Below, one piece after another: positions 15,556-31,494 of a stretch of 50,749 bases of DNA. The DNA comes from an uncultured Candidatus Saccharibacteria bacterium. GTDB taxonomy: Bacteria; Patescibacteriota; Minisyncoccia; Phycocordibacterales; UBA9973. The notes under the pieces were generated by a model. That model saw only the letters and a list, made by a program, of their open reading frames with translations. It was not told the DNA's origin and made no database searches. The stretch covers positions 1 through 50,749 of the forward strand of contig CAZAFG010000002.1 of assembly GCA_964484865.1 (NCBI GenBank), written 5' to 3'. Positions within the stretch are counted from its first letter, which is position 1, and each line of letters starts with the position of its first letter. Made by a program: the position numbers and the translations under genes.

Positions 15556-15564
15556 ATTATAGCA
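15556..15564 (-). promoter_or_regulatory. extended -10 promoter TGCTATAAT, 8 nt upstream of the ATG at 15547
   Basis: Minus strand reads TGC TATAAT TAGGCTTG ATG. Confidence 0.55.
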
Positions 15565-15571
15565 GACTTCT

Positions 15572-17542: not shown

Positions 17543-17548
17543 CAAATT

Positions 17549-17557
17549 ATTATATCA
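17549..17557 (-). promoter_or_regulatory. extended -10 promoter TGATATAAT, 6 nt upstream of the ATG at 17542
   Basis: Minus strand reads TGA TATAAT AATTTG ATG. Confidence 0.55.
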
Positions 17558-17559
17558 AA

Positions 17560-20500
17560 TTAATCTCCATTCAACACATCTCTTGTCATTGGCCCTACCA
17601 CAGCATCAGGCTTTAGCTCATGAGTGCTTTGGAACTTCTTGAGCGCTTGGATGGTAAGATTGCCGAATTTATTAGTTTCATTACCTAGTGAACCAATGCC
17701 ACTTGTGGCTAGTGGAAAACCATGAGTATTTAAATACTTTTGAAGTTCTTTCACCTCGACATCAACCATGGGTGCCCAGAGATTTTTTGTGAAAATAAAT
17801 TTATTTGGATTTGGATTATTATGAATTTCAAAATTACTTGTTCCACATGGTGCTCCAGTTAAATTGCTAAATAGTGCTCCACTTGTGCATGGTGCTAGAG
17901 AGTTTATTGGAATAACTACTGAAATATTTTGTGGTTTTAATACTCTTCGAGTGGACCCAGAAGAAGAACGAGCTTGTACTTCCGGCTCAGCTTCTTCTAC
18001 TACTCTATTAAAATAAACAACAAAAACATCGTATGAATTGTTTGTATCGTCAGACACTAATCCTTCCACACCTCCATTACTAAAATCAAAAGAAATATAT
18101 TGATTATCTTCTGAAATTGACGGACGGGATTGTACTTGATTACTATTAGAAATTTGATTACCATCGTCATCAACAGAAACTCTAACTACGGTTTCCGTAT
18201 CTCTATCATATAAGAACACATCTATCAGAGCATTTGTGTCATTATCTACTAAGTTAGTCGCTTGGGAAGAATAAGCGATATACCTACCATCTGAAGATAT
18301 TGTTGGGTAATATGATTGAGTGTCTCCTTCTGAGCCTTCATTGTCAACTGATATACGAGTAGTTGTGCCCAAAGTTATATCACGAATAAAAATATCTTCT
18401 GACCCATTGGTATCACCTGACACTAAATTTGAAGCTTCTGACCTAAATACTACAAAATTACCGTCAGCAGAAATAATGGGATCTGTAGAAGTACTATCTC
18501 CTTCAACTTCACTAGAGTCTACTGATATACGCATAGTTGTCCCGAGTTCAATATCGCGAAGAAAAACATCCCTAGATCCATTTGTATCTCCTGCTATCAA
18601 ATTTGTCGAGGTTGAAGAAAAAACAACTAAATTATTATCAGAAGGCATAGATTGAATATCTCCATCGGAACCATTATCTCCTTCTACTTCATCTGAGGAA
18701 ACAGATATACGAGTAGTAGTGCCTAGAGCTATATCACGCATGAAGATATCAGCACTGCCATTTGTATCACCAGCAACTAAATTTGCCGCATCTGATACAA
18801 AAGTAATAAAATTTCCATCCGAAGATATATAAGGACTATATGAATCACTATCTCCCTCAACTTCATTACTATCTACAGATATTCGTGAAGTTGCTCCTAA
18901 AGCAATGTCGCGAAGAAAAACATCTTGAAATCCATTTGTGTCACCTGCAACTAAATTCGTTGCATAAGAAGTAAAAACAACATAGTTTCCATTAGCTGAG
19001 ATTATTGGATATCCTGAACTTCCATTTCCCTCAGCTTCTGCACTACTTACTGATATTCGCTCAATAGTATCGGTATCCCTATCATAGACAAAAATATCTT
19101 GCTCATTATTAGTATCACTTGCTACTAAATTAGTAGCATATGATTGGAAAGCAACATATCTACCAGCAGAAGATATTGAACTATAATTCGAATCAGAATC
19201 CCCCTCTACTCCCAGATCAGATATAGAAACTCTCTCAATTCCATCATGTACAGATGAACCAATTGTAAAATTCCAAGTTGTCGTATCTGCAATTCCAGCA
19301 AAAGAGTTTCCAGAATTATCTTCAAAAGCTCCAGCATCTATTTGTACATAATAAGCAGTTGCTAAACCTAAATTAGAACTAGGATTAATCGTTACATCTG
19401 TACCACTAACTTCTACTAAGCCACCGTCTGTAACATCTATCGTCTGTACGATAGAGTTATCAGAAGATTTTTTAATTAAAATATTACCAACTCCAGCAAC
19501 TACATTTTCATTAAAAGTTATAAGTAAATTACTATTAGCTGAGACACCTTCTGCGCCATCTGTAGGTGTTAAGGTACTTACAGTGGGAGGAGTTCCATCT
19601 GTTGTAAAATTCCAAGTTGTCGTATCTGCAATTCCAACAAAAGAGTTTCCAAATAAATCATCAAAGGCAGTTGCATCTATTTGCACATAATAAGAAATAC
19701 CAGGTTCTAAATCAGAACTCGGATTTATTTGAAAAGTAGTTTGACCTCCAAGTATTACTTGTCCACTTTCTACATCTATAGCTTCAACGACAGAATCATC
19801 CGAAGACTTTTTAATTGTAATATTCCCTGTACCAACCTTCATTATTTCACTAAAAGTAATATTTAAATTAGTACTTGGAAGCACATCTACTTGCCCGTCA
19901 GATGGATAAAGGCCTGAAATTGTAGGTATTACAGCATCTATCGCATCATATTTATATACCAACGCATCTGTTGCATCAGTAATCCAAAAAAAGTTATTGT
20001 AATAAGTAATTCCTATAGGAGTGGCATTTCCGCTGGCATTTGTATCAAAACTAAAATTAGTTTTTGTGCCACTAGGATAATACATATATACTTCTCTATT
20101 GATGTCATCGGCAATCCAAAAATAACCATTATAAGAAACTATTCCTTCAGGGCCATTATTGCTATTACTTGATGTATCAAAATGAACCCCTGTGTAAGTA
20201 CCATCAGGGTTGTATCTATAAACTTCTGCATCATTCCAATCAGTAATCCATAAAAAATCATTATAAGTAGCTATTCCTGAAGGTAAATCGCTACCACTTC
20301 CTGCTGTATCAAAAGAAGTCCCAGTATAAGTACCGTCTGGGTTGTATTTATAAACTTCTAAATCTGCATAATCAGTTATCCAAAAAAAATCATTGTAAGC
20401 AGTGATTCCTAGCGGATCATTATTCCCACTACCTGCTGTATCGAAAGAGAAGCTTGCGTATGTACCATCTGGGTTGTACTTATAAACTTCTGCGTCAACG

Positions 20501-20685
20501 CCATCTATTACCCAGAAAAAATTATTATAAGCAGTTATGCCGGTCGGATAATCGTTGCCACTTCCAGAAGTACTAAAAGAAACACCTGTATAATCACCAA
20601 AAGCTGCAAAAGAATTTTTTGGGAAATAAAATCCGACTCCCAATATACCTATCAAAGTCAGTACAAATATGCCTTTCTTAAACAT
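17560..20685 (-). CDS. giant secreted surface protein: N-terminal NHL/YWTD-like propeller, two Ig-like domains, seven-blade PD40/TolB-like propeller, C-terminal PG-binding domain
   Basis: Start moved from TTG 20712 to ATG 20685 (MFKKGIFVLTLIGILGVGFYFPKNSFA signal peptide), because a promoter lies inside the TTG extension. The C-terminus VKELQKYLNTHGFPLATSGIGSLGNETNKFGNLTIQALKKFQ is nearly identical to that of the 12959-15547 gene. Confidence 0.85.
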   Translation of the reverse strand: MFKKGIFVLTLIGILGVGFYFPKNSFAAFGDYTGVSFSTSGSGNDYPTGITAYNNFFWVIDGVDAEVYKYNPDGTYASFSFDTAGSGNNDPLGITAYNDFFWITDYADLEVYKYNPDGTYTGTSFDTAGSGSDLPSGIATYNDFLWITDWNDAEVYRYNPDGTYTGVHFDTSSNSNNGPEGIVSYNGYFWIADDINREVYMYYPSGTKTNFSFDTNASGNATPIGITYYNNFFWITDATDALVYKYDAIDAVIPTISGLYPSDGQVDVLPSTNLNITFSEIMKVGTGNITIKKSSDDSVVEAIDVESGQVILGGQTTFQINPSSDLEPGISYYVQIDATAFDDLFGNSFVGIADTTTWNFTTDGTPPTVSTLTPTDGAEGVSANSNLLITFNENVVAGVGNILIKKSSDNSIVQTIDVTDGGLVEVSGTDVTINPSSNLGLATAYYVQIDAGAFEDNSGNSFAGIADTTTWNFTIGSSVHDGIERVSISDLGVEGDSDSNYSSISSAGRYVAFQSYATNLVASDTNNEQDIFVYDRDTDTIERISVSSAEAEGNGSSGYPIISANGNYVVFTSYATNLVAGDTNGFQDVFLRDIALGATSRISVDSNEVEGDSDSYSPYISSDGNFITFVSDAANLVAGDTNGSADIFMRDIALGTTTRISVSSDEVEGDNGSDGDIQSMPSDNNLVVFSSTSTNLIAGDTNGSRDVFLRDIELGTTMRISVDSSEVEGDSTSTDPIISADGNFVVFRSEASNLVSGDTNGSEDIFIRDITLGTTTRISVDNEGSEGDTQSYYPTISSDGRYIAYSSQATNLVDNDTNALIDVFLYDRDTETVVRVSVDDDGNQISNSNQVQSRPSISEDNQYISFDFSNGGVEGLVSDDTNNSYDVFVVYFNRVVEEAEPEVQARSSSGSTRRVLKPQNISVVIPINSLAPCTSGALFSNLTGAPCGTSNFEIHNNPNPNKFIFTKNLWAPMVDVEVKELQKYLNTHGFPLATSGIGSLGNETNKFGNLTIQALKKFQSTHELKPDAVVGPMTRDVLNGD
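18034..19236 (-). repeat. seven roughly 57-aa coding repeats (PD40/TolB-like propeller blades)
   Basis: Units take the form .R(I/V)SV.S.E.EGD..S..P.IS.DG.(F/Y)V.F.S.A.NLV.GDTNG..D(I/V)F(L/I)RD...G.T, repeated seven times. Borders are approximate. Confidence 0.75.
19945..20595 (-). repeat. five 44-aa coding repeats (NHL/YWTD-like blades)
   Basis: P.GIT.YN.FFWITD..D.EVYKYNPDGTY.G.SFDT. Trp falls at aa 67, 111, 155, 199 and 243 in track ORF numbering, a period of 44. Confidence 0.75.
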
Positions 20686-20691
20686 GAGGAT

Positions 20692-20700
20692 ATTATAACA
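20692..20700 (-). promoter_or_regulatory. extended -10 promoter TGTTATAAT, 6 nt upstream of the ATG at 20685
   Basis: Minus strand reads TGT TATAAT ATCCTC ATG. Confidence 0.55.
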
Positions 20701-20714
20701 AAAAAAACCCAAAA

Positions 20715-21080: not shown

Positions 21081-22081
21081 TGTCAAAAATAGATTTCTTA
21101 GCCATCGGGGACACTGTGATAGATGCTTTTATAAAATTAACTGACGCTGACCATGCTGATATTCGAGGAACATCCGGTCATGAAGATTATAAAATATGCC
21201 TACCTTTTGCGGATAAAATTCCCTATGAAGAAGTGTATGTACTAAATGCTGTCGGCAACGCTGCCAACGCTGCAGTTTCTGCATCCAGGCTTGGACTGAA
21301 AACTGCTTTAGTTTCCAATTTAGGAAGTGATTCAAACGGTAAGGACTGTTTAAAGTCTTTAAAGAAAGATGGAGTAAGTACTAAGTTTGTAAAAATTAAT
21401 AAAGGAATAAAGACCAATTATCACTATGTCTTATGGTATAAAACTGAACGAACAATTTTAATCAAACACGAAAAGTATCCATACACTTTGCCAAAGATTG
21501 GTGAACCGAAATGGATTTATTTTAGTTCGGTCTCCGCAACTGCTTATCCATTTCACGACATTGTGGCAGAATATTTAGAAAAACACCCAAATATAAAACT
21601 TGCTTTTCAACCAGGTAAAAATGAAATTAAACTTGGGAAAGAAAAACTATCAAGACTTTACGCTCGTTCTGATATATTTTTTTGCAATGTAGAGGAGGCA
21701 CGAACAATTTTAGATAAACAAAATGCAGATATTTTAGAATTATCCCGTGGACTATCAGAATTTGGTCCAAAAATAGTTTCTATTTCTGACGGGCCAAATG
21801 GTGCATATATGTATGTAAGTGGTGAACTCTGGCAAATACCTTTATATCCAGACATAGCTCCGCCAGTAGAGAGAACTGGAGCTGGGGATGCTTTTGCTTC
21901 GACCATCACTTGTGCGATAGCATCTGGATTATCCCCTATTGAAGCTTTGACTTGGGGGCCGATAAATTCAATGTCAGTAGTACAAGGGATCGGTGCTCAA
22001 AAAGGACTACTTTCTAGAAGTGCATTAGAAGAATACCTAGCCAAAGCACCTCTAAACTACAAACCTAAGAAAATAAATTAG
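21080..22081 (+). CDS. PfkB-family carbohydrate kinase (ribokinase-like)
   Basis: 333 aa. N-terminal FLAIGDTVIDAF, a C-terminal TGAGDAFASTI anion-hole/ATP motif, and a ribokinase-fold pattern. Confidence 0.85.
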   Translation: MSKIDFLAIGDTVIDAFIKLTDADHADIRGTSGHEDYKICLPFADKIPYEEVYVLNAVGNAANAAVSASRLGLKTALVSNLGSDSNGKDCLKSLKKDGVSTKFVKINKGIKTNYHYVLWYKTERTILIKHEKYPYTLPKIGEPKWIYFSSVSATAYPFHDIVAEYLEKHPNIKLAFQPGKNEIKLGKEKLSRLYARSDIFFCNVEEARTILDKQNADILELSRGLSEFGPKIVSISDGPNGAYMYVSGELWQIPLYPDIAPPVERTGAGDAFASTITCAIASGLSPIEALTWGPINSMSVVQGIGAQKGLLSRSALEEYLAKAPLNYKPKKIN

Positions 22082-23076
22082 ATTTTTCTATTTAGAACTT
22101 TTTTCACTGCTTCTTTAATAGCATATTTACCCATACCATAGTATTCTACTAGTTCTTTGGGTGTGCCGGATTGACCAAATTTATTTTGAACTCCGATAAA
22201 TTCTACAGGTACGGGAAAGTTTTGAGCAAGCACCTCGGAAACAGCAGAACCCATGCCTCCATGGACTTGATGCTCTTCTACAGTCACGACTGCTTTAGTT
22301 TCTTTTGCAAGTGCAATAAGCGCACCTTGATCTATGGGGTTTATCGCAGAGAGATTCATAACTTTAGTTTTTATTCCCTCAGCTTCTAACTCTTTGGCTG
22401 CAAGAAGAGCATTGTAAGCAAGTCCTCCAGTAACCACTATACCGACATCCGCCATGCCGACATCTGGTAACCAATATACTTGTGCTTTGCCAATTTCAAA
22501 TGGAGTTTCTTCTGTTGTAATGATTGGAGTTTTTTCACGAGCCAAACGAATATAGGCTGGAGTTTTTGTTTTTGCGAGTGCTAAAGTTGCCTTCCTCGCT
22601 TCAAGTGCATCGCATGGAGAAATAACATCCATATTTGGAATTACTCTCATGAGTGCCATGTCTTCAAGAGCTTGGTGGGTACCTCCATCAGGGCCAACTG
22701 AAATTCCTGCGTGTGAACCAACGATCACAACCTTCCTATCGTTATAAGCAATCGTTGTACGAATTTGTTCCCAGTTTCTACCTGGAGAAAACATGGCATA
22801 GCTAGAGCAAAATGGAATCTTACCCATAGCACTCATGCCCGAAGCAACTGTCACCAAGTTCTGCTCAGCGACGCCTATCTCCACAAACCGTTCCGGAAAT
22901 TTTTCGCGAAACAAATGCATCTGAGTCGACTCAGTCAGGTCAGCACAAAGAGCCACGACATTTTTGTCCGCCTCTCCTGCTTTCAACAACCCTTCACCAA
23001 AACCTTTACGAATCGGTGACTCTTCGCAGTCCGCACTAAACAATTTTGGATTTAATTTTAATTCTGGATTAAGCAT
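22078..23076 (-). CDS. transketolase, C-terminal (pyrimidine-binding) subunit
   Basis: 332 aa. RKGFGEGLLKAGE, FVEIGVAEQNLV, GSHAGISVGPDGGTHQALEDMALMR. Confidence 0.93.
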   Translation of the reverse strand: MLNPELKLNPKLFSADCEESPIRKGFGEGLLKAGEADKNVVALCADLTESTQMHLFREKFPERFVEIGVAEQNLVTVASGMSAMGKIPFCSSYAMFSPGRNWEQIRTTIAYNDRKVVIVGSHAGISVGPDGGTHQALEDMALMRVIPNMDVISPCDALEARKATLALAKTKTPAYIRLAREKTPIITTEETPFEIGKAQVYWLPDVGMADVGIVVTGGLAYNALLAAKELEAEGIKTKVMNLSAINPIDQGALIALAKETKAVVTVEEHQVHGGMGSAVSEVLAQNFPVPVEFIGVQNKFGQSGTPKELVEYYGMGKYAIKEAVKKVLNRKI

Positions 23077-23077
23077 T

Positions 23078-23983
23078 TTATTGGTGCTCGCTTCTAATTT
23101 TTCCTTCTAAGGTTCGTAGTTCATTAAGCGCGATTTTTACTTGCTCTTCTTTGGGTGGATCACCAGCGACATCTTTCTTACCAAGCGGGTCACCATGCCA
23201 ACGAAAATCTCGCTCTGCAAAGTGAACGCCCTTCCCAGGAATCGTATGAGCTATTATGACAACCGGTTTTTCATAAATCGCATGCGCTTCTTCGATGGCT
23301 TGATACAGAGCTTGAAAATCATGCCCGCCTACAGATATCACATGCCAATTAAATGCACTCCATTTATCTACCAAAGGTTCGAGAGGCATGATATCTTCAG
23401 TATAGCCATCAATCTGAATGTTATTTCTATCTACTATTGCAATCAAATTTCGAAGTTTATGTTTCCCTGCAAGCATCATGGCTTCCCAAGTATTACCTTC
23501 GTTGTGCTCACCATCACTCATCATAGCGTAAATAAATCTATCTTTATCTCTACCATCCATTTTATCAGAGATAGCCATCCCTACTGCTTGTGAAAGTCCT
23601 GAACCAAGAGGCCCTGAAGAATTTTCAAGCCAAGGCATATACTCTCTATGTGGATGACCTTGGAGTCGAGAACCGAATTTACGGAGAGTTTTAAGTTCTT
23701 CAAGCGGCATATAGCCAGCATGAGCCATAGTTGCATAAAGCACTGGAGCGATATGCCCATTGGAAAGTACTAACCGATCGCGCTCTTCCCAACTCGGATT
23801 TTTAGGATCATGTTTAAGTACATGGAAATATAGTAAGGTAAAAATATCTGCCATTCCGAGTGGTCCTGCCGTGTGTCCGCTTCCCGCTTCAGTCAACATC
23901 TGAATTATTGACTCACGGATTTGGGTAGCTTTGAGTTCTAAATTTTTTACAGTATCATCTGATAGCATTTTGGTATTATCCAA
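23078..23983 (-). CDS. transketolase, N-terminal (TPP-binding) subunit
   Basis: 301 aa. GSGHTAGPLGMADIF, LSNGHIAPVLYA, GPLGSGLSQAVGMA, MSDGEHNEGNTWEA. The track start is a TTG at 23983. An ATG at 23968 (MLSDD...) is an alternative. Confidence 0.93.
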   Translation of the reverse strand: MDNTKMLSDDTVKNLELKATQIRESIIQMLTEAGSGHTAGPLGMADIFTLLYFHVLKHDPKNPSWEERDRLVLSNGHIAPVLYATMAHAGYMPLEELKTLRKFGSRLQGHPHREYMPWLENSSGPLGSGLSQAVGMAISDKMDGRDKDRFIYAMMSDGEHNEGNTWEAMMLAGKHKLRNLIAIVDRNNIQIDGYTEDIMPLEPLVDKWSAFNWHVISVGGHDFQALYQAIEEAHAIYEKPVVIIAHTIPGKGVHFAERDFRWHGDPLGKKDVAGDPPKEEQVKIALNELRTLEGKIRSEHQ

Positions 23984-24678: not shown

Positions 24679-25170
24679 TTACTTAGGTTCTAGTTTATCT
24701 AGTCGACGCAAATGTCTTTCGGCCTGCGAGAAAGGAGTGGCTAGGAAAAGTTCTATCGCAAACTTGGCTTCATCAAGAGTTACAAACCGAGCTCCAACAG
24801 AAAGAATGTTTGCATTATTGTGTTCCCGTCCCAATTTTATCATTTGAAAAGTTTCACTGGTCATCTCTCCACCAGGTGCAGGTTCCATATCTTCTTGTCC
24901 ATAAAAAACTACTGCGCGCGCGCCAGAGACTTTATTCGCACACATAGCTTCACCTTGACCAGAACCACCAAGAACAATTCCGAAACTTCCGTGATTTTCA
25001 GCAACAGCCAGCGCCACAGGATACACAAAATCCGGATAGTCGTCATCCTCCTTATATTCAAAAGCCCCTTTATCTGTTACCTCATATCCCAATTCCAAAC
25101 CTGCTAGATATTCAATCAGCTTCTCCTTCATCTCATATCCCGCATGATCCGATCCAATAAAAATTTTCAT
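24679..25170 (-). CDS. rpiB: ribose-5-phosphate isomerase B
   Basis: 163 aa. MKIFIGSDHAGYEMKEKL, LGGSGQGEAMCANKV.GARA. Confidence 0.9.
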   Translation of the reverse strand: MKIFIGSDHAGYEMKEKLIEYLAGLELGYEVTDKGAFEYKEDDDYPDFVYPVALAVAENHGSFGIVLGGSGQGEAMCANKVSGARAVVFYGQEDMEPAPGGEMTSETFQMIKLGREHNNANILSVGARFVTLDEAKFAIELFLATPFSQAERHLRRLDKLEPK

Positions 25171-25206: not shown

Positions 25207-25746
25207 TTACGGGCAAATAAATTGAATAGGAAAAGAAAAATCAGAGAAAGTCCCATAACCCAATGGCCCGCTAATTTGTTTAGAGTTGCCGGCACTATCT
25301 ACACACCAGATATGATCACTAGAACCATCAGTTAAGGGCGAAGTTTTTAACCTAATCGCTGCCACCCAACTAGTAGGTGACGCACCGCAAAAAGATGAAT
25401 AAGAAGAGTTAGGAATTTTTATCCTACTCATGGCATGAGTAATGGCTTCACTAATTTTAGAATCATTTTTAAACAACAAGTTACCGTAGTACTGTACTGC
25501 ACCTGGGCAGGTCACTCCACTGATATCACCAGAAAGAGTGTAACTTTTATTTTTTTGAAAAAAAAGTTCAGCTTGAGTTTGGACTGCTTTCAAGTCCTGA
25601 ATTATTACAGAATCTGCTGTCTTATCTCGAGCACTACTGAGACTCAAAATAAGTATAGTCGATAAAATACCAATTATTGCAACTGCTACTAAAAGTTCGA
25701 TTAGAGTAAATCCATGTATAAATTTTATTTTATTATTTGATCGCAT
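25207..25746 (-). CDS. type IV pilin-like / pseudopilin protein (prepilin N-terminal methylation motif)
   Basis: Internal ATG at 25746 gives MRSNNKIKFIHGFTLIELLVAVAIIGILSTILI..., the classic G/FTLIELLV prepilin cleavage-methylation site. The longer track ORF (to 25842) would overlap gap by 110 nt. Confidence 0.85.
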   Translation of the reverse strand: MRSNNKIKFIHGFTLIELLVAVAIIGILSTILILSLSSARDKTADSVIIQDLKAVQTQAELFFQKNKSYTLSGDISGVTCPGAVQYYGNLLFKNDSKISEAITHAMSRIKIPNSSYSSFCGASPTSWVAAIRLKTSPLTDGSSDHIWCVDSAGNSKQISGPLGYGTFSDFSFPIQFICP

Positions 25747-26767
25747 TCCCTGTCTTGATAACATGATCGACAAGTGTGTAGGTGTACCCCATCTCGTTGT
25801 CATACCAGCCCATAACTTTAACCAAGTTACCGCCAACAACACGAGTCATTTCCAGATCCGCAATAGAAGCATGAGAATTTCCTAAAATATCGGAGGACAC
25901 GAGAGGTTCATGAGTCACTGCAAATATTTTACTCCAACGAGGATCTTTGGAAGCTTTCTCTAAAATTTGATTAACTTCTTCGGCAGTAGTTTGTTTTTTA
26001 GAAATAAAAGTTACATCCACGATAGATCCTGCAGGTACTGGTACCCGAATAGATATACCATCAAAAAGTCCATCAAGTTCCGGATACGCTTTGGTGACTG
26101 CGATGGCTGCTCCTGTTGAGGATGGCACGATGTTTTGCGCTGCCGCTCTTCCCTCACGAAGATCTTTTTTCGACGGGCCATCAACGAGTGCTTGAGATGC
26201 AGTATAGCCATGCACTGTATTTAAAATCGCTTTCTCGATCCCCAGGGATTCATTCATGATACCAATCAGCGGGCTTGCAGCGTTAGTGGTACAAGATGCA
26301 TTTGATGTAATATCACAAGTGCCAAATTTGTCTTCGTTAACCCCGAGCAGAATAGTTTCTCCTGGGAAACTCCCATCCCCTTTGGAGGGCGCTGAGATAA
26401 CAACTTTTTTTGCACCTTGATCGAGGTGAAACTTTGCTTTTTCATAAGCAGTAAAAAGCCCAGTAGATTCTACCACCACATCAATATCCAAATCTTTCCA
26501 AGGAAGCTTGGTGGTATCTTTTTCAGAAATAACTTTGACCTCTTTTCCATCGATGATGAGCGCACCATCCTTGTGCTCAATATTTTTAGGCCATGTCTTA
26601 TAAACAGTGTCGTATTTTAAAAGGTAGGCTAAAGACTCAATGGAGCCAAGATCATTCACTGCAACAACTTCTAACTCCTCTCGCTCCCAAGCTAATTTTA
26701 AAAATGCTCTACCTATTCTTCCAAACCCATTAATTGCTACTCTGGTCGTTTTGGTGGTTTTCTTCAT
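25733..26767 (-). CDS. gap: glyceraldehyde-3-phosphate dehydrogenase
   Basis: MKKTTKTTRVAINGFGRIGR start, the SNASCTTN active-site motif, and WYDNEMGY at the C-terminus. The preferred ATG at 26767 still overlaps the upstream gene by 38 nt. The track start 26809 overlaps by 80 nt. Confidence 0.93.
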   Translation of the reverse strand: MKKTTKTTRVAINGFGRIGRAFLKLAWEREELEVVAVNDLGSIESLAYLLKYDTVYKTWPKNIEHKDGALIIDGKEVKVISEKDTTKLPWKDLDIDVVVESTGLFTAYEKAKFHLDQGAKKVVISAPSKGDGSFPGETILLGVNEDKFGTCDITSNASCTTNAASPLIGIMNESLGIEKAILNTVHGYTASQALVDGPSKKDLREGRAAAQNIVPSSTGAAIAVTKAYPELDGLFDGISIRVPVPAGSIVDVTFISKKQTTAEEVNQILEKASKDPRWSKIFAVTHEPLVSSDILGNSHASIADLEMTRVVGGNLVKVMGWYDNEMGYTYTLVDHVIKTGNAIK

Positions 26768-28508
26768 TTGTTTGTTCGTTTTCTTGGTTAATAATTTCTT
26801 CAGGTTCATTTAATTCTTCTTCCTCTGCCGGTATTATCTCCTCCGGAGCAGATTCTTCTATTGTACCATCTTCCTCATCTTCCTCAATAACCAAATCCTC
26901 TTCTATGACTTCGCCTGTCTCTGTCTCTGTCTCTGTCTCTGTCTCTGTCTCTGTGTCTGTGTCTGTGTCTTCTTCATTGTTTTCATTATCATTAGTAGAA
27001 ACATTCTTTTGCCCAGCTAAAATTTCTTTCAACTGCTCTTCATTGATACAAGTCTCACCGATACAAATTTCATCTTTTACAAAAAGTTTCTTGATACCGT
27101 TCGTAGAACTTGCAAACCAAGCTATAAATTTTTCACCAAAACTATTTCCTTCATTTTCAAAATCATTAATGTCTCTTAATTTTATATCCAATTCCTGAAT
27201 ACCTTTTACTAATTTCCATTGATTTGGAAGTTGCACAGAATACATACCATTAGAAAGTATAGAAACTAGTTCTGGGTGATTTTCAAGTACTTCTTGAGCG
27301 ATCACACCAGTCATATTGTTTCCAGAAGCTATAACATCATAATTTCTAATTCTAAAACTATTTAAATATTCTAAAACAGAATCACTATCTACAATATTTG
27401 TTTTCAATCGCTCGTCAGAAGAACATGTTACAGTTTCTGCTCCAGCTTCTGGGTCATGGAGACATTCTCCATCAGAGTCATGTAAAGCAAAAATATATCC
27501 ATCGGTACCAGTTTTTTCTACATCAAAAAGATAATCTGGGGTTATGTCACCAATTCCAGTATTTCCATTTCCAGATATTGTAAAAAGAGTTGCTGTTGTT
27601 CCACTATTCACACCGGTAATATAAAACTGGGAAGTTCGAGTAGCTGGGGTAGCATCTGTCCATTTTGAAATAAGTTGATTAGATATAAATACACCTTCAC
27701 CTCCGGAATTAGATGTTTGTATCTTGTAATCAATACTCCCGCCGGTATTAGTTTCATCATTTGAATTACCTCCAACAGAACCAACCGTAATATCTACCAT
27801 TGTCTTAATTGCTCCAGCTGTAATCCCCTGCTGAGCCTGTAGTAAAATAGGTGTCGACTGTCCGTAAGTATTTGCGAATAGTCCATAACCTCCGGCTAAA
27901 TTAAAGGAAAATCCTTCAACACCGTAACCATTAGTACCGCCAACTCCTTGAACACCAGAACTATTAGCATTAGCAGTAACACCAATAACACCAACATATC
28001 CCCTCCCGTACAATCCAGAGCCCTCAGCTCCACCTGTTGCTTCTGCATACACTCCATAAACATAACCCCCTAAATTTTCCGTATTAGAAAAATAACCAGC
28101 ATAAGTAGGAGTAGGATCACCATCATCATCTTCACTATTAGATCCATTTCTGGTAACCTCCAACAATTTCTGATTCCAAGAGTCTCCCGCTGAAGTAGTG
28201 GAAAGTTTTAATCCACTTTCACCTCCTAATGTGTTCCACTGCCACTCTTGAGTGTAATTTCCATTGTCTATGGTATTTGTAGAATCAGCTGCAGTTAGAT
28301 CAGAAATTGAAGAACTCACTGTCACATAACAATTCGGATCTGTCGGCCCGCAACCTCCCCAGCCAGTACCTGGGTCGCCAGGATCTTGCACATTATCGTC
28401 AGGGGCAAAAGGAGCACCAGGATCAGCAGCAAACACTATGAATACAGATACGAGAAAAGAAGTCAGTACTATTGAGGTAAGCGAATACAAGAAATTTCTC
28501 GATTTCAT
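26730..28508 (-). CDS. secreted tail-fibre-like protein with a Peptidase_S74 intramolecular-chaperone domain and an acidic C-terminal tail (592 aa)
   Basis: Signal peptide MKSRNFLYSLTSIVLTSFLVSVFIVFA, then a Gly-rich repeat body. The S74 hallmark is SSDERLKTNIVDSDSVLEYLNSFRIRNYDV...GVIAQEVLENHPELV (about aa 363-445, nt about 27174-27422). The tail is (TD)3(TE)6 and E-rich. Confidence 0.85.
   Translation of the reverse strand: MKSRNFLYSLTSIVLTSFLVSVFIVFAADPGAPFAPDDNVQDPGDPGTGWGGCGPTDPNCYVTVSSSISDLTAADSTNTIDNGNYTQEWQWNTLGGESGLKLSTTSAGDSWNQKLLEVTRNGSNSEDDDGDPTPTYAGYFSNTENLGGYVYGVYAEATGGAEGSGLYGRGYVGVIGVTANANSSGVQGVGGTNGYGVEGFSFNLAGGYGLFANTYGQSTPILLQAQQGITAGAIKTMVDITVGSVGGNSNDETNTGGSIDYKIQTSNSGGEGVFISNQLISKWTDATPATRTSQFYITGVNSGTTATLFTISGNGNTGIGDITPDYLFDVEKTGTDGYIFALHDSDGECLHDPEAGAETVTCSSDERLKTNIVDSDSVLEYLNSFRIRNYDVIASGNNMTGVIAQEVLENHPELVSILSNGMYSVQLPNQWKLVKGIQELDIKLRDINDFENEGNSFGEKFIAWFASSTNGIKKLFVKDEICIGETCINEEQLKEILAGQKNVSTNDNENNEEDTDTDTETETETETETETGEVIEEDLVIEEDEEDGTIEESAPEEIIPAEEEELNEPEEIINQENEQTNEENHQNDQSSN
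26917..26970 (-). repeat. in-frame hexanucleotide microsatellite (GTCTCT)6(GTGTCT)3
   Basis: Read directly from the plus strand at 26917-26970. It encodes DTDTDTETETETETETET in the acidic tail of the 592-aa protein. Confidence 0.95.
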
Positions 28509-28524
28509 TCTATTTATTATATCA
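28317..28524 (-). repeat. 208-bp direct repeat, copy A (promoter plus first 64 codons of the 592-aa fibre gene)
   Basis: Aligned by eye base by base against 31258-31465, offset 2941 bp. The 192 coding bp have 1 mismatch (28488 C vs 31429 G, Leu/Phe at codon 7). The 16 upstream bp have 2 mismatches. Confidence 0.95.
28516..28524 (-). promoter_or_regulatory. extended -10 promoter TGATATAAT, 7 nt upstream of the ATG at 28508
   Basis: Minus strand reads TGA TATAAT AAATAGA ATG. Confidence 0.55.
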
Positions 28525-28542
28525 AAAATATAAAAATAGTGC

Positions 28543-31449
28543 CTATGAAACTGGTTCTTCTTCTACGGGTACAGGTACAGGATCCGATTCTTCGGATTCC
28601 CCTCCTTCCTCTACAGGAACATCGATATCTTCTACAACTTCTTCTACAGCTTCTTCTGTGGGATTTTCTTCGCTAGAATTTTCTTCATCTGGATTTACAA
28701 CTTCGGGTTCGTCTTCGTCGCTCGAGCTAGTATTAGAGTGTTGATGACTATCTCCCTCTGGCTGACTTAAAAGATTCTTCAAAGACTGAAGCTCTGCTCG
28801 ATTGATACATACAGATTCTTCCCCGGGCTCAGTCAAACAAATCTCTCCAGTGAAAATTCTAGTAATTTTATTTTCAGCATTCGCCAGCCAAGAACGCAAC
28901 TTATTTCCAAAAGAATTATCTTCTTCGTCAAAATCAGAAACATCACGAAGTTTAATATCCAAATCTTGTATCGAAGCTACGATCACTGGAGTAAGTTTAG
29001 AATAATCCACCATCCAATTGTCAGAATCTTGGACTGGCTTGGTGACCGCATGAGGGTAAACATCATAGAGTTCTTGGGCATACACTCCAGTGTAAACAGT
29101 ATGGTGAATATCTCCTTTCCAGGTGAAGTCATGAATTTGAATTTCATTTAAAAGATCTAGGGAGGATTCAGTTCTTTCGTTGACTGTATCTTTAAGTCTT
29201 TGATCGGAAGTAGTGTTGTAAGCTGTAGCTGAAGAACCAAACGAAATAGAACCTACTGCTCCTCCGTCACCATCTTGGAAACCAATCAAGGTCGATGGTC
29301 CCACCGCAGTGTGATCATCAAGTCCAGCTTGAATTAATATTCCACTTCGAGTTGTGGCATTACCGTCGTTAAAGAAATTGGCTACATATGATGCAACATC
29401 GGTTTCGATATCGAGGCGATAGTCGGGAGTAGTGTCATTAATACCAAAAAATCCAGAAGGAAGAATCGTGGCTTTTGTTGAAAGAGATTGTAGTGTTGCG
29501 CCTGATGCTCCTGCATTAGAAGTTTGGAAAATTATAGATCCACCGAGAGCGTTACCTGTCGCTTTACCGGAAGCAAGAGTCAGTGACGCACCAGCAATAT
29601 CAGATCCAGAAGCTCCGGAACCATTTATCACTACACCTACCGGGGAAGCCGCAATAACTCCTGTTCCAAAAAAAACATTATCGATATAACTACTTGCGTC
29701 ATCAGATCCAAAAACTAATTGATTACTTGCAGTATTTGTCGCTCCGCGACCCATAGCAATGGAGTTTGAGAAGTTTCCTGTGTCTGTATATGGACCTAAA
29801 AGAATAGAGTATCCACCAGTGGTATTGTCGACAGTATCACTCTCACCAGCTCGCTCTCCTAAGAATATACTATTTGCTGCATTGGCTGCATTTCCACCAG
29901 CATTAGCGCCGACAAAGAAAGAGTTTGATGCAGCAAAATTTAATGTTCCATATCCAGCTCCCGCTCCAAGAAAAACAGAAAATTCAGCATCAACTGCATT
30001 CTGGCCAGCACCACCACCTATAAAAATACTGCTAGTAGCATTCGTTGCACCATTCCCAGTTTGATTACCTATAAAAACAGAATCAGCTGCATTGGTTGCA
30101 TCTTGTCCAGCACTTGTTCCAAAAAAGTTTGAATACGAGGCATTTGTGGCTAATTTTCCGGCACGATATCCCATAAAATTTGAGTCAGTAGCACTCGTCG
30201 CCTGATATCCTGCTTCATATCCAAAAAAGTTTGCATCATCTACTGCAGTCACTTGATATCCAGCTGTCTCACCAAAGAAATTTGAACCATCAGCATTAGT
30301 AGCTCCGAGACCCGCATTAGCTCCAAGAAAATTAGAGTGGTCAGCATTTGTTGCTCCATTACCTGCCCCAGTTCCAAGAAAATTAGAATAATCAGCATTT
30401 GTTGCACTAGTGCCTGCACCACTACCAAAAAACAAACTGGATATCATCCCAGATGGAGAAGCCCCTCCAAGGGATAAGCTCAAATCAGAATATGCTTCAA
30501 TTAAAAAGTTTGAACTACCAAGTTTTAAAATACCATCGATTTGTGCCGCATAATTATTAGTACCACCAGACGCTGTTGCATACAGTCCTATTGATGTAGT
30601 ACCACCAGACGCGACCGCGTACACGGCGGTGTTTGTAGTAGCTCCTGAAGAAGTCGCATACACTGCACGATTTGTCGTTAAACCTCCAGAACCAGTATGA
30701 GTATTGGAAAAATACCCTCCATAAGTTGTCTGATTAGCATTAGCGTTTGCACCTGATGTAGAAACATTTAAAACTTTTTGTAAATTAGCTGTGGCTGCTG
30801 TACCAGTAACTACAAGATTCATTAATGAACCCGCTGAAAGCGTTGAAGAAGCACCATAAAACCCAGTACCGGAAGTTAGTGAATTTCCATTAAGTGCAAG
30901 GATAGATGAGGTTGTAGTTTGAGTAGTGTTGGCTGAAGTTATAGACATAGCACCAGAGCCTTGAGTGTAGCCAGTAACTGCTGCAATAGCGCCGGCAGAA
31001 TTTACTCGAAACAAATCACCATTACCCACGGTCAACATTGCTGAAGGAGTTGCGTCTCCAATACCTACATTGCCAGTACCTGTATCTACAAACAAATCAT
31101 CAGTATTTACTACCAAGTCTCCGGTGATATTTTGATCTCCAACTAAAGATAGAGTACTGCCATCAAAAGTAAGATTTGCTGAATAATCAAAATCGTTACC
31201 GCCCACATTTGTAAAAGGAATCTGGTTGTCAGCACCAAAAGAGGTAGAACCGACCGCCACTGTCACATAACAATTCGGATCTGTCGGCCCGCAACCTCCC
31301 CAGCCAGTACCTGGGTCGCCAGGATCTTGCACATTATCGTCAGGGGCAAAAGGAGCACCAGGATCAGCAGCAAACACTATGAATACAGATACGAGAAAAG
31401 AAGTCAGTACTATTGAGGTAAGCGAATAGAAGAAATTTCTCGATTTCAT
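28543..31449 (-). CDS. secreted tail-fibre-like protein with 17-aa beta-solenoid repeats, a Peptidase_S74 intramolecular-chaperone domain and an acidic tail (968 aa)
   Basis: The first 64 residues match the 592-aa paralog at 63 positions. The S74 hallmark is TTSDQRLKDTVNERTESSLDLLNEIQIHDF...GVYAQELYDVYPHAV (about aa 747-835, nt about 28945-29211). The post-domain segment QDLDIKLRDVSDFDEEDNSFGNKL is conserved with the paralog. Confidence 0.85.
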   Translation of the reverse strand: MKSRNFFYSLTSIVLTSFLVSVFIVFAADPGAPFAPDDNVQDPGDPGTGWGGCGPTDPNCYVTVAVGSTSFGADNQIPFTNVGGNDFDYSANLTFDGSTLSLVGDQNITGDLVVNTDDLFVDTGTGNVGIGDATPSAMLTVGNGDLFRVNSAGAIAAVTGYTQGSGAMSITSANTTQTTTSSILALNGNSLTSGTGFYGASSTLSAGSLMNLVVTGTAATANLQKVLNVSTSGANANANQTTYGGYFSNTHTGSGGLTTNRAVYATSSGATTNTAVYAVASGGTTSIGLYATASGGTNNYAAQIDGILKLGSSNFLIEAYSDLSLSLGGASPSGMISSLFFGSGAGTSATNADYSNFLGTGAGNGATNADHSNFLGANAGLGATNADGSNFFGETAGYQVTAVDDANFFGYEAGYQATSATDSNFMGYRAGKLATNASYSNFFGTSAGQDATNAADSVFIGNQTGNGATNATSSIFIGGGAGQNAVDAEFSVFLGAGAGYGTLNFAASNSFFVGANAGGNAANAANSIFLGERAGESDTVDNTTGGYSILLGPYTDTGNFSNSIAMGRGATNTASNQLVFGSDDASSYIDNVFFGTGVIAASPVGVVINGSGASGSDIAGASLTLASGKATGNALGGSIIFQTSNAGASGATLQSLSTKATILPSGFFGINDTTPDYRLDIETDVASYVANFFNDGNATTRSGILIQAGLDDHTAVGPSTLIGFQDGDGGAVGSISFGSSATAYNTTSDQRLKDTVNERTESSLDLLNEIQIHDFTWKGDIHHTVYTGVYAQELYDVYPHAVTKPVQDSDNWMVDYSKLTPVIVASIQDLDIKLRDVSDFDEEDNSFGNKLRSWLANAENKITRIFTGEICLTEPGEESVCINRAELQSLKNLLSQPEGDSHQHSNTSSSDEDEPEVVNPDEENSSEENPTEEAVEEVVEDIDVPVEEGGESEESDPVPVPVEEEPVS
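29839..30438 (-). repeat. eleven to twelve 17-aa (51-bp) coding repeats
   Basis: NADYSNFLGTGAGNGAT / NADHSNFLGANAGLGAT / NADGSNFFGETAGYQVT / AVDDANFFGYEAGYQAT / SATDSNFMGYRAGKLAT / NASYSNFFGTSAGQDAT / NAADSVFIGNQTGNGAT / NATSSIFIGGGAGQNAV / and further units. Confidence 0.85.
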
Positions 31450-31465
31450 TGTATTTATTATACCA
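31258..31465 (-). repeat. 208-bp direct repeat, copy B (promoter plus first 64 codons of the 968-aa fibre gene)
   Basis: See copy A at 28317-28524. Confidence 0.95.
31457..31465 (-). promoter_or_regulatory. extended -10 promoter TGGTATAAT, 7 nt upstream of the ATG at 31449
   Basis: Minus strand reads TGG TATAAT AAATACA ATG. Confidence 0.55.
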
Positions 31466-31494
31466 GAATGATTAAGTGAAGAAAATAGAGTTTA

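What the first reader, a model, noticed from the sequence alone, without database searches (positions are those of the whole stretch)
26730..31449. Two tandem, chromosomally embedded tail-fibre-like secreted proteins with S74 intramolecular-chaperone domains and no phage around them
**Seen in sequence.**
- Both ORFs (968 aa and 592 aa) open with a signal peptide and a 38-aa constant segment (AADPGAPFAPDDNVQDPGDPGTGWGGCGPTDPNCYVTV).
- They continue with Gly/Ala/Thr/Asn-rich solenoid-type repeats and a GI(N/G)DTTPDY.LD(I/V)E motif.
- Each then carries the hallmark of the endosialidase/tail-fibre chaperone domain: S-D-x-R-L-K followed by ...GV(Y/I)AQE(L/V)... (TTSDQRLKDTV... and SSDERLKTNIV...).

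**Established knowledge.** In Peptidase_S74 (Pfam PF13884) proteins this domain nucleates trimer folding. It is then autocleaved at the Ser of the Ser/Lys dyad.

**Context.** The flanking genes are gap and dnaE. No capsid, portal, terminase, baseplate, integrase or att-like repeat occurs anywhere in the 50 kb. Each gene has its own leaderless-type promoter.

**Inference.** These are host-domesticated trimeric surface fibres. The constant N-terminal module would anchor them and the distal parts are variable, which suits adhesins of a host-attached (epibiotic) small-genome bacterium. After autocleavage the acidic tails would be discarded.
Basis: partly seen in the sequence, partly recalled or inferred. 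Interest (0 to 1): 0.72.

Follow-up and report, generated by a model that had tools for sequence, protein, structure and literature searches.

The report
Phage-fibre-like secreted proteins in a CPR bacterium
Two neighbouring chromosomal genes of a tiny, probably host-dependent bacterium (Paceibacteria, candidate phyla radiation) encode exported, self-processing, phage-tail-fibre-like proteins built from swappable modules. This resembles the prey-recognition fibres recently found in Bdellovibrio and makes them candidate host-recognition molecules.

Summary
ORFs 26730-28508(-) (592 aa) and 28543-31449(-) (968 aa) share a 97% identical first 65 residues. That stretch is a Sec signal peptide plus a short Cys-loop module. 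Both carry a Peptidase_S74 intramolecular-chaperone domain above Pfam's cut-off, with the Ser/Lys dyad intact, and both end in acidic tails. The 50.7-kb contig holds only housekeeping and surface-protein genes.

Related Paceibacteria keep the same dnaE | fibre | fibre | gap order. The two variable cassettes are replaced outright, while the neighbouring gap protein stays 98.5% identical. The N-terminal module marks at least 255 protein clusters, always right after a signal peptide and mostly paired with S74. Every genome locus found was Patescibacterial. None turned up in viral contigs.

Best reading: Sec-exported, extracellularly trimerised, self-cleaving mosaic surface fibres, probably adhesins. 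They are analogous to the Bdellovibrio MAT fibres (2024) but have a different, much shorter N-terminal module and a lineage-specific extension after the S74 domain.

Trimerisation, cleavage, anchoring and ligand were not tested. I rate this a new variant of a known kind, of moderate interest.

The parts
26730..28508 (-). Gene for the 592-aa S74 fibre protein (the variable slot next to gap)
   Evidence: ORF. PF13884 scores 33.7 bits. Positional counterparts are 814 aa (L004) and 1024 aa (L003).
28516..28545 (-). Promoter-like site for the 592-aa gene: TAGGCA, 18 nt, TG-extended TATAAT (28521-28516), then 7 nt to the ATG (leaderless-type geometry)
   Evidence: 10 of 12 matches, TG present; sequence. 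This is a consensus match only, and the same geometry occurs at other genes.
28428..28508 (-). Signal peptide, aa 1-27 (predicted SPase I site VFA|A)
   Evidence: Sequence. Family statistics: -1 is Ala in 163 of 167, -3 is V/A/I/T/S, and the core is hydrophobic.
28317..28427 (-). N-terminal Cys-loop module, aa 28-64 (ADPGAPFAPDDNVQDPGDPGTGWGGCGPTDPNCYVTV)
   Evidence: Alignment A1: P, D-P and both Cys are invariant. 255 clusters hit at E<=1e-3, always at about aa 20-70.
27558..28316 (-). Fibre body of the 592-aa protein, aa 65-317. It is G/T/S/N-rich. aa 65-160 is a sub-family-conserved segment; from about aa 161 the replaceable cassette begins.
   Evidence: Composition; segment BLAST; DNA breakpoints.
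27420..27557 (-). GIGDITPDY motif plus the tip segment with the Cys349/Cys362 pair, aa 318-363. The predicted mature C-terminus is S363.
   Evidence: Profile match of this part to Bdellovibrio Bd2133 (8ond, E 3.3e-5).
27189..27419 (-). S74 intramolecular-chaperone core, aa 364-440 (S364/K369 dyad; GVIAQE)
   Evidence: AF2 pLDDT is 82-97. Foldseek hits.
26997..27188 (-). Post-S74 module, aa 441-504 (NSFxxKxxxWFAxxxNGI..LF, a Cys482/Cys487 hairpin, then a helix), conserved in the Patescibacterial family
   Evidence: Secondary structure (moderate confidence).
26733..26996 (-). Acidic low-complexity tail, aa 505-592 (44% D+E, no K/R). It contains the hexanucleotide repeat (CTGTCT)x9.3 at 26915-26970.
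28543..31449 (-). Gene for the 968-aa S74 fibre protein (the conserved slot next to dnaE)
   Evidence: ORF. PF13884 scores 36.2 bits. Orthologs of 965-968 aa.
31457..31465 (-). TGgTATAAT extended -10 element, 7 nt upstream of the ATG of the 968-aa gene
   Evidence: Read from the sequence. It lies inside the 218-nt repeat.
31369..31449 (-). Signal peptide, aa 1-27
31258..31368 (-). N-terminal Cys-loop module, aa 28-64, identical to that of the 592-aa protein
   Evidence: This stretch is 94.7% identical to the slot-2 gene of L004, against 88.7% to its own ortholog, which points to gene conversion.
30832..31257 (-). Replaceable cassette of the 968-aa protein, aa 65-206 (no DNA homology to the ortholog in a genome whose gap protein is 98.5% identical)
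   Evidence: Related segments sit at other positions in other proteins.
29815..30438 (-). 17-residue solenoid-type repeats, aa ~338-545 (SNFxGxxAGxxATNAxx)
   Evidence: They match phage virion structural proteins.
29209..29814 (-). Distal fibre body and tip, aa 546-747 (GINDTTPDYRLDIE at aa ~683-696). The predicted mature C-terminus is T747.
   Evidence: It is 85-98% identical to the ortholog.
28960..29208 (-). S74 intramolecular-chaperone core, aa 748-830 (S748/K753; GVYAQE)
28768..28959 (-). Post-S74 module, aa 831-894 (NSFGNKLRSWLANAENKITRIF; Cys871/Cys881)
28546..28767 (-). Acidic, Pro-rich tail, aa 895-968 (38% D+E, no K/R)

Best explanation
The two genes encode Sec-exported, phage-tail-fibre-like proteins of a Paceibacteria-type (CPR/Patescibacteria) cell. 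They belong to the chromosome and are not phage genes.

**Proposed mechanism**
1. Each gene is transcribed from its own TGnTATAAT promoter, probably as a leaderless mRNA.
2. The precursor crosses the membrane unfolded, and signal peptidase I cuts after VFA27. This exposes a conserved 37-aa Pro/Asp/Gly-rich module with one disulfide loop (C53-C60).
3. Outside the cell, where no ATP-dependent chaperones are available, the C-terminal S74 intramolecular-chaperone domain brings three chains into register. It nucleates folding of the Gly/Ala/Thr/Asn-rich beta-solenoid fibre.
4. The Ser/Lys dyad then cuts before S364 (592-aa protein) or S748 (968-aa protein). This releases a 229- or 221-aa fragment made of the chaperone core, a lineage-specific disulfide-hairpin module and an acidic tail. 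The acidic tail may keep the precursor soluble.
5. The mature fibres would be aa 28-363 and 28-747. They stay on the cell through the N-terminal module and present variable, recombination-shuffled segments that bind surface structures of a partner or host cell.

**Shown**: domain content, catalytic residues, fold of the chaperone core, signal-peptide features, paired cysteines, chromosomal synteny, mosaic cassette exchange, gene conversion of the 5' end, and the restriction of located genome loci to Patescibacteria.

**Inferred**: trimerisation, cleavage, retention through the N-module and the adhesin role.
For: **S74 domain**
- PF13884 is above the gathering score in both proteins.
- S, D, L and K of SDxRLK and G/A/Q of GxxAQE are invariant in 40 homologs.
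- A family profile hits solved structures: phage tail fibres carrying the chaperone (8jov 1.4e-12, 6f45 1e-10), MyRF ICA (7dc3 4.8e-9), the neck appendage chaperone (3gud) and Bdellovibrio fibres (8ond 3.3e-5).
- The AF2 model of the C-terminal 190 aa has pLDDT 82-97 in the core. It matches MyRF ICA (probability 1.00) and 252 viral models at E<=1e-3, led by 'intramolecular chaperone auto-processing' and S74 proteins.

**Export**
- The signal-peptide consensus holds across 167 relatives.
- Every Cys sits in a close pair: 53/60, 349/362 and 482/487 in the 592-aa protein; 53/60 and 871/881 in the 968-aa protein.

**Not phage**
- The window holds only housekeeping and surface genes.
- The order dnaE | ~966 aa | variable | gap is conserved in GCA_018061125.1, and 968 | 814 | gap in GCA_013558295.1.
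- Another clade keeps homologs beside rpsL-rpsG-fusA.
- No relative was found in 2.9 million viral contigs.
- Cultured-phage matches cover only the S74 part or the repeats, at 39% identity or less.

**Family size and range**
- The N-module hits 255 clusters at 50% identity, always just after the signal peptide. Of 124 new hits, 71 carry S74.
- All 20 genome loci found are Patescibacteria.

**Mosaicism**.

**Precedent**: Bdellovibrio MAT fibres (PMC10769870).
Against: - Nothing here tests trimer formation, cleavage, surface retention or binding.
- The full-length monomer model is poor (mean pLDDT 54.6).
- The N-module is only 37 aa with no recognisable fold or known partner. Other surface proteins in this window use C-terminal PG_binding_1 domains as anchors, and the fibres have none, so they may simply be released.
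- In the 968-aa gene the replaced cassette lies near the presumed cell-proximal end. That is unexpected if only the distal tip recognises ligands.
- The organism's epibiotic lifestyle is assumed from its lineage. It is not shown.
Confidence: 0.6

Rival explanations
1. They are tailspike-like glycan depolymerases, either surface-bound or released. In this reading the beta-solenoid body is an enzyme that degrades capsule, EPS or cell-wall polymers of a host or neighbour for access or nutrition, as in endosialidase. Binding would be secondary.
For: S74 was first defined on endosialidase, and many S74 tailspikes are depolymerases (established knowledge). The window also carries glycan-handling genes: two GH130 genes and a PA14/CBM protein. 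No anchor domain was found.
Against: There is no glycosidase, lyase or esterase family hit in either protein, even at E<=1. The bodies look like thin repeat fibres (17-aa repeats) rather than the large right-handed beta-helix catalytic domains. The profile and fold matches are to fibres.
Confidence: 0.15
2. They are structural or protective envelope components: a fibrous coat or spacer layer, or decoys against phage adsorption. In this reading they have no specific role in recognising a partner cell.
For: The slot-1 gene is conserved in length (965-968 aa) and mostly in sequence across genomes. There is strong promoter consensus and several paralogous loci per genome.
Against: Outright cassette replacement between genomes whose gap protein is 98.5% identical, together with module shuffling, is the signature of ligand- or antagonist-driven diversification and not of a plain scaffold. 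A phage-decoy role would, however, also diversify.
Confidence: 0.12
3. They are fibres of a prophage, tailocin or extracellular contractile injection system encoded elsewhere in the genome, or remnants of a decayed prophage.
For: There is homology to phage tail-fibre families (PHROG hits; phage tblastn hits). Only 50.7 kb of the genome is visible.
Against: - Both proteins carry Sec signal peptides and paired cysteines, whereas virion or tailocin fibres assemble in the cytoplasm (established knowledge).
- The housekeeping synteny is conserved in at least two genomes, and there is a second housekeeping location in another clade.
- No integrase, tRNA or att-like repeat is present.
- No relatives occur in viral contigs.
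- Both ORFs are intact and their catalytic motifs are conserved.
Confidence: 0.03

Closest known systems
Bdellovibrio bacteriovorus MAT (mosaic adhesive trimeric) fibres, S74 subgroup, e.g. Bd3182 (Caulton et al. 2024, PMC10769870)
   Same: Both are chromosomal and non-phage. Both have a signal peptide followed by a family-constant N-terminal element, a long fibre body and mosaic, swappable segments. Both end in an S74 domain with SDxxxK that (in Bd3182) self-cleaves at the Ser. Both occur as several paralogs per genome, in a bacterium that lives on other bacteria. The pre-S74 segment of the present family matches Bd2133 by profile (8ond, E 3.3e-5).
   Different: - The constant N-terminal element here is about 37 aa with one Cys loop, against a ~130-aa beta-rich domain in MATs. 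No homology between the two was shown.
- The present family adds a conserved post-S74 module with a Cys hairpin and a long acidic tail.
- The host cell is a Patescibacterium, presumably without an outer membrane (prior knowledge), not a diderm predator.
- Surface location and function are untested here.
Phage tail fibres and tailspikes with a C-terminal intramolecular chaperone (K1F endosialidase 3GW6, T5 pb1 4UW8, long tail fibre distal subunit 6F45, neck appendage 3GUD)
   Same: They share the S74 domain, the catalytic dyad and the VGIGxxxPxxxL-type motif before it, placed at the C-terminus of a fibrous repeat protein.
   Different: The present proteins have a Sec signal peptide, paired cysteines, no virion genes nearby, a different N-terminus (no baseplate or adaptor-binding domain recognised) and an extra C-terminal module. 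Similarity to cultured phage proteins is limited to 15-26% of the length.
MyRF (myelin regulatory factor) ICA domain, 7DC3
   Same: It is the best solved-structure fold match of the modelled chaperone core (probability 1.00, 24% identity over 117 columns). It also hits by profile at E 4.8e-9. It is another example of the phage chaperone domain domesticated by a cell.
   Different: MyRF is a eukaryotic membrane-bound transcription factor. There, cleavage releases a DNA-binding trimer and not an extracellular fibre.
Trimeric autotransporter adhesins (YadA/Hep_Hag type)
   Same: They also have short Gly/Ala/Asn-rich solenoid repeats. Some homologs were labelled 'trimeric autotransporter adhesin' by JGI, and two carry PF05658.
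   Different: Neither window protein has a YadA anchor or any Hep_Hag hit. Trimerisation would come from an S74 chaperone rather than a C-terminal beta-barrel. Type Vc secretion needs an outer membrane.

Membership tests
Peptidase_S74 / C-terminal intramolecular chaperone domain (PF13884) | Significant match to the family HMM above the curated cut-off | tested here: met
   33.7 and 36.2 bits against a gathering score of 22; the matches span profile positions 1-57/58 and 1-58/58.
Peptidase_S74 / C-terminal intramolecular chaperone domain (PF13884) | Catalytic Ser-Lys dyad in an S-D-x-x-x-K motif, with the downstream G-x-x-A-Q-E motif | tested here: met
   S364/K369 and S748/K753. S, D, L, K, G401, A404 and Q405 are invariant in 40 sequences.
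Peptidase_S74 / C-terminal intramolecular chaperone domain (PF13884) | Fold of the chaperone domain like solved or predicted S74 domains | tested here: met
   The domain model has pLDDT 82-97 in the core. Top PDB hits are MyRF ICA 7dc3 (probability 1.00, E 1.1e-3) and then 3gw6. 252 BFVD hits at E<=1e-3 are led by S74 and intramolecular-chaperone proteins. The PDB E-values are marginal because the model is a monomer of a trimeric domain.
Peptidase_S74 / C-terminal intramolecular chaperone domain (PF13884) | Autoproteolytic release of the domain and chaperone-dependent trimerisation | not testable with these tools
   This needs expression of wild type against S364A/K369A, or proteomics. No multimer prediction was available.
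Bdellovibrio-type MAT fibres | Signal peptide followed by a family-constant N-terminal domain (~130 aa, beta-rich in Bdellovibrio) | tested here: not met
   The signal peptide is present, but the family-wide constant part is only about 37 aa. Beyond aa 64 the two window paralogs are unrelated. Homology to the MAT N-domain could not be tested because no sequence was at hand.
Bdellovibrio-type MAT fibres | Mosaic architecture: a shared scaffold with exchangeable segments and tips, ending in S74 or in something else | tested here: met
   Cassette replacement and segment shuffling. Proteins carrying the N-module also end in a Peptidase_G2 chaperone (P0320) or carry DUF2793 (P0224, P0269).
Bdellovibrio-type MAT fibres | Sequence relatedness of the fibre body to solved MAT structures | tested here: inconclusive
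   The profile hit to Bd2133 (8ond) at E 3.3e-5 covers only about 47 positions before the S74 domain. 8ojn and 8oml are at E 0.05-0.66. The Foldseek hits to 8ond and 8oml are not significant.
Bdellovibrio-type MAT fibres | Cell-surface location and a role in recognising another bacterium | not testable with these tools
   This requires microscopy or genetics.
Virion, tailocin or eCIS tail fibre | Encoded within or next to phage-tail structural genes | tested here: not met
   No phage structural, integrase or terminase family appears in the window. Four homologous loci also lie in housekeeping context.
Virion, tailocin or eCIS tail fibre | Cytoplasmic assembly (no secretion signal) | tested here: not met
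   The proteins have a Sec-type signal peptide with an AxA-like site, conserved in 167 relatives, and paired cysteines.
Virion, tailocin or eCIS tail fibre | Close relatives present in viral sequence collections | tested here: not met
   There were 0 confirmed relatives in IMG/VR using the N-module and S74-subtype patterns. Cultured phages match only the S74 or repeat parts, at 39% identity or less.
Trimeric autotransporter adhesin | C-terminal YadA-type membrane anchor and Hep_Hag head repeats | tested here: not met
   There are no such Pfam hits at E<=1 in either protein.

The most novel reading that the evidence does not exclude
The ~37-aa Cys-loop module at the mature N-terminus may be a Patescibacteria-specific docking or sorting signal. 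It would plug phage-derived, self-chaperoned fibres (S74-type, and occasionally Peptidase_G2-type) into the CPR cell envelope or a pilus-like structure. The cassette-swapping fibres at loci such as dnaE-gap would then be the main determinants of which host cell an episymbiotic CPR bacterium can attach to. That would be a cellular counterpart of phage host-range switching.
Probability: 0.3. Interest if true: 0.75.

Novelty: new variant of a known kind. Interest (0 to 1): 0.55.

Why it matters
How ultrasmall CPR/Patescibacteria find and hold on to their hosts is largely unknown beyond type IV pili (abstract of PMC12206443, listed). A widespread, fast-recombining family of exported phage-fibre-like proteins gives concrete candidates for host-specificity determinants.

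The family has a recognisable N-terminal signature, so it can be searched for directly in metagenomes. Its predicted processing sites can be checked in metaproteomes.

It also extends the recent Bdellovibrio finding. Self-chaperoning phage fibre modules appear to have been domesticated independently, with different N-terminal modules, by bacteria that live on other bacteria.

Tried and rejected
**Searches that gave nothing useful**
- Single-sequence PDB searches of both proteins returned only noise. A family profile was needed.
- NCBIfam gave no hits. PHROGs gave nothing for the 968-aa protein, and only S74-region hits for the 592-aa protein.
- The word-indexed protein search with the 41-column N-module alignment collected only 29 candidates and 1 hit. 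The exhaustive representative search worked instead.
A closer 8-sequence alignment (A4) worked.
- Five literature searches found no paper describing S74 fibres in CPR/Patescibacteria. The Bdellovibrio paper does not mention them.

**Weak results**
- The full-length AF2 monomer of the 592-aa protein was poor (mean pLDDT 54.6). Its Foldseek hits had the right identity but were not significant.

**Ideas considered and dropped**
- Trimeric autotransporter: no anchor domain.
- Prophage or tailocin remnant: see the rival explanations.
- Targeting by a diversity-generating retroelement: no reverse transcriptase appears among the window's ORFs scanned with Pfam, and the variation seen is whole-cassette replacement, not point hypermutation.
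- The antisense ORF at 26734-27198: a by-product of the low-complexity tail.
- Lipoprotein anchoring: there is no Cys at +1 of the signal peptide.

Full report
**1.

Their first 65 residues are 63/65 identical. In DNA this is a 218-nt direct repeat, 97% identical, at 28317-28534 and 31258-31475. It extends about 26 nt upstream of each ATG and so includes the -10 element. A 50-nt probe from it occurs exactly twice in the window, against zero expected.

The N-terminus has a basic n-region, a hydrophobic core and V-F-A27 before the conserved segment. The predicted mature protein therefore starts at A28.

Both proteins hit Pfam Peptidase_S74 above the gathering score (33.7 and 36.2 bits against 22). 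The matches start precisely at S364 and S748.

The bodies are rich in Gly, Ala, Ser, Thr and Asn. The 968-aa protein contains at least 11 repeats of exact 17-residue period, SNFxGxxAGxxATNAxx. These are visible as 51-nt tandem repeats.

The tails are 44% and 38% Asp+Glu, with no Lys or Arg.

**2. Context: a chromosome, not a prophage**

Every sizeable ORF of the window was scanned.
- Housekeeping and metabolic genes include lepA, murJ, leuS, ychF, a pentose-phosphate set with a split transketolase, gap, dnaE, pth, lepB, hisS, def, fmt, hpf and two GH130 genes.
- Several large surface proteins are also present.
- The only PHROG hits outside the two fibres come from PG_binding_1 and pilin-like domains.
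- There are no tRNA genes and no Rfam matches.

The window is a whole NCBI contig (P0031).

In GCA_018061125.1 (Candidatus Pacebacteria) the order is dnaE | 966 aa S74 | 1024 aa S74 | gap-rpiB. In GCA_013558295.1 it is 968 | 814 | gap.

So the pair is a stable chromosomal locus in this clade. The dnaE-proximal gene is conserved in length. The gap-proximal slot varies: 592, 814 or 1024 aa.

A more distant clade keeps one or two S74 genes between an M50 peptidase/CarboxypepD_reg gene and rpsL-rpsG-fusA. The gap/dnaE position is therefore clade-specific, but the housekeeping context is general.

**3. The S74 domain is genuine**

In a 40-sequence alignment, S364, D365, L368, K369, G401, A404, Q405, P412 and V415 are invariant.

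Single-sequence searches of the PDB found nothing. A profile of the C-terminal region did:

| PDB entry | Protein | E-value |
|---|---|---|
| 8jov | phage tail fibre | 1.4e-12 |
| 6f45 | long tail fibre distal subunit | 1e-10 |
| 7dc3 | MyRF ICA domain | 4.8e-9 |
| 8ond | Bdellovibrio Bd2133 (via the pre-S74 VGIG...P...L segment) | 3.3e-5 |
| 3gud | neck-appendage chaperone | 2.8e-4 |

The full-length monomer model was poor overall (mean pLDDT 54.6) but reached 83-93 across the chaperone core. Its top fold hits were T5 pb1 with its chaperone and the endosialidase chaperone, neither significant.

A model of the C-terminal 190 aa had pLDDT 82-97 in the core. It matched MyRF ICA with probability 1.00. 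It also matched 252 viral models at E<=1e-3, led by 'intramolecular chaperone auto-processing domain' and 'Peptidase S74' proteins.

**4. A defined family with lineage-specific ends**

*N-terminal module.* The N-terminal segment is not private to this genome. Its consensus is [FY]-A | x-x-P-x-x-P-x-x-P-x-[DE]-[NT]-[ILV]-(Q)-D-P-(0-12 residues)-C-x-P-x-x-x-x-C-[YST]-V. One Pro, the D-P pair and both Cys are invariant.
- An exhaustive profile search of 1.84 billion representative proteins found 255 clusters at E<=1e-3. The match always lies at about residues 20-70, directly after a signal peptide.
- Across 167 of these, position -1 is Ala in 163, position -3 is V/A/I/T/S, and the median predicted site is residue 28.
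- Of 124 new hits, 71 carry the S74 region. Most of the rest are short fragments.
- A few long ones end differently: P0320 in a Peptidase_G2 intramolecular chaperone, and P0224 and P0269 with DUF2793.

*C-terminal extension.* After the S74 core, the Patescibacterial proteins share an extension (NSFxxKLxxW[FL]AxxxNxIxx[IL]F, then a C-x(3-10)-C hairpin and a helix), followed by an acidic or Pro-rich tail. Non-Patescibacterial hits end in a short coiled coil instead.

*Cysteines.* All cysteines of both window proteins sit in close pairs, as expected for proteins that fold outside the cytoplasm.

*Distribution.*
- All 20 loci recovered from the species-representative genome set are Patescibacteria: Paceibacteria, Nomurabacteria, Parcubacteria, Minisyncoccia and TPA assemblies labelled Saccharibacteria. 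Several genomes contribute two loci.
- No relative was confirmed in 2.9 million viral contigs.
- Cultured phages match only the S74 part or the 17-aa repeats, at 39% identity or less over 15-26% of the query.

**5. Mosaic evolution**

Between the window and L004, the gap protein is 98.5% identical. The 968-aa orthologs are only 77.5% identical overall: 15-38% over aa 81-200, but 85-98% over aa 481-880. The slot-2 proteins are 75-95% identical over aa 1-160, 25-45% over aa 161-440 and 65-100% over aa 441-592.

At DNA level the breakpoints are sharp:
- Homologous blocks: 31561-31262; 30831-28028 (81.8% identity); 27204-25402 (89%).
- No detectable homology: 31262-30831 (968-aa protein, aa ~63-206) and 28028-27204 (592-aa protein, aa ~161-435).

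The 5' end of the 968-aa gene is closer to the slot-2 gene of L004 (94.7%) than to its own ortholog (88.7%). Combined with the 97% repeat inside the window, this indicates gene conversion of the promoter, signal peptide and N-module between the paralogs.

Segment-wise BLAST shows that each segment has different nearest relatives, often at different positions in proteins of different lengths. For example, aa 320-440 of the 592-aa protein is 94% identical to aa 787-907 of a 1048-aa protein whose body is otherwise only 39% similar.

In slot 1 the exchanged cassette is N-proximal. In slot 2 it includes the tip and the chaperone core.

**6. Mechanism**

The best-supported account combines the shown anatomy with what is established for S74 domains: they nucleate trimer folding and then self-cleave at the Ser of the Ser/Lys dyad. 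This was demonstrated for Bd3182 at S782, among others (PMC10769870).

The steps would be:
1. Sec export of an unfolded precursor.
2. Signal-peptide removal after A27.
3. Chaperone-driven trimerisation and fibre folding outside the cell.
4. Self-cleavage before S364 or S748.

This yields mature fibres of aa 28-363 and 28-747, and released fragments of 229 and 221 aa.

An intramolecular chaperone suits a protein that must fold outside the cell without ATP. That point is my inference. Retention through the N-module and binding to a partner cell are also inferences, made by analogy with the MAT fibres and from the diversification pattern.

The rivals are a depolymerase, a structural or protective coat, and a fibre of a phage-tail-like particle. 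The first two cannot be excluded. The third is made unlikely by the signal peptide, the synteny and the absence from viral collections.

**7. Comparison and novelty**

The closest known system is the Bdellovibrio MAT family. It comprises 21 chromosomal fibres, 13 of them ending in S74, all with a constant N-terminal domain after the signal peptide, and with mosaic tips.

The present family works like a MAT fibre, but I cannot file it as a member, for three reasons:
- The family-wide constant N-terminal element is ~37 aa rather than ~130 aa, and no homology between them was shown.
- There is a lineage-specific post-S74 module.
- The lineage and envelope differ.

NCBI already labels such proteins 'tail fiber domain-containing protein'. 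The held literature has no description of them in CPR bacteria.

I rate this a new variant of a known kind, of moderate interest. It offers searchable, testable candidates for host recognition by CPR bacteria.

**8. Minor points**

The leaderless-type geometry (TGnTATAAT, 7 nt, ATG) is real for both genes. It also occurs at rpiB (the identical TATAATAAATACATG), hpf and others.

The 592-aa protein's exact sequence is absent from the protein collection, although the 968-aa one is present. The gene may have been called differently in the source annotation.

Noticed in passing
window 12959-20712 (-): Three tandem large secreted proteins (863, 657 and 1050 aa) each end in a PG_binding_1 domain. Their N-terminal parts differ: DUF285, PKD and Flg_new_2 in one; Big_5 in another; Big_5 plus PD40 in the third. 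This genome's other surface proteins apparently use a peptidoglycan-binding C-terminal anchor, which the S74 fibres lack.
   Followed up: partly
window 47503-50749 (+): An ORF of at least 1082 aa runs off the contig end, so it is absent from the ORF list. It has an acidic N-terminal region, a PA14 domain and a CBM_4_9-like domain, and so is another probable glycan-binding surface protein.
   Followed up: partly
window 24679-25170, 40658-41041, 12959-15550, 15572-17545 and others: A TATAAT box 6-8 nt upstream of the start codon, with no Shine-Dalgarno sequence, recurs at many genes. rpiB has the same TATAATAAATACATG as the 968-aa gene. This suggests widespread leaderless transcription in this genome.
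   Followed up: partly
window 26915-26970: A near-perfect hexanucleotide repeat, (CTGTCT)x9.3, encodes the (Thr-Glu/Asp)n run in the acidic tail of the 592-aa protein. The very similar tail of P0002 lacks most of it, so the repeat number varies between close relatives. It stays in frame and changes only the tail length.
   Followed up: partly
window 26730-26809: The longest gap ORF overlaps the 3' end of the 592-aa gene by 80 nt. Using the second Met (344 aa, as annotated in relatives), the overlap is still 38 nt, the same as in L004.
   Followed up: no
window 25207-25842 (-): A type IV pilin-like gene (N_methyl motif GFTLIELL) lies directly downstream of gap. The listed GTG start overlaps gap, so the real start is probably the internal Met before the prepilin motif.
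   Followed up: no
P0320, P0224, P0269 (proteins): The same N-terminal Cys-loop module is also fused to proteins with a Peptidase_G2-type intramolecular chaperone (P0320) or a DUF2793 phage-fibre domain (P0224, P0269). The module therefore serves more than one kind of fibre.
   Followed up: partly
window 41069-44677 (-): Two adjacent GH130 (beta-1,4-mannooligosaccharide phosphorylase) genes are followed by a cupin-type mannose-6-phosphate isomerase. Together they look like a small mannoside-utilisation cluster.
   Followed up: no
window 22078-23983 (-): Transketolase is split into separate N-terminal and C-terminal genes. The same arrangement is seen in the related genome L003.
   Followed up: no
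window 26734-27198 (+): The 154-aa antisense ORF, rich in Ser and Val, lies opposite the acidic tail. It is most likely a by-product of the low-complexity GAA/GAC-rich coding strand and not a gene.
   Followed up: no
window 38962-40653 (-) and 44703-45899 (-): Two sizeable ORFs (563 and 398 aa) have no Pfam family. The first has only a weak match to a PHROG of unknown function.
   Followed up: no
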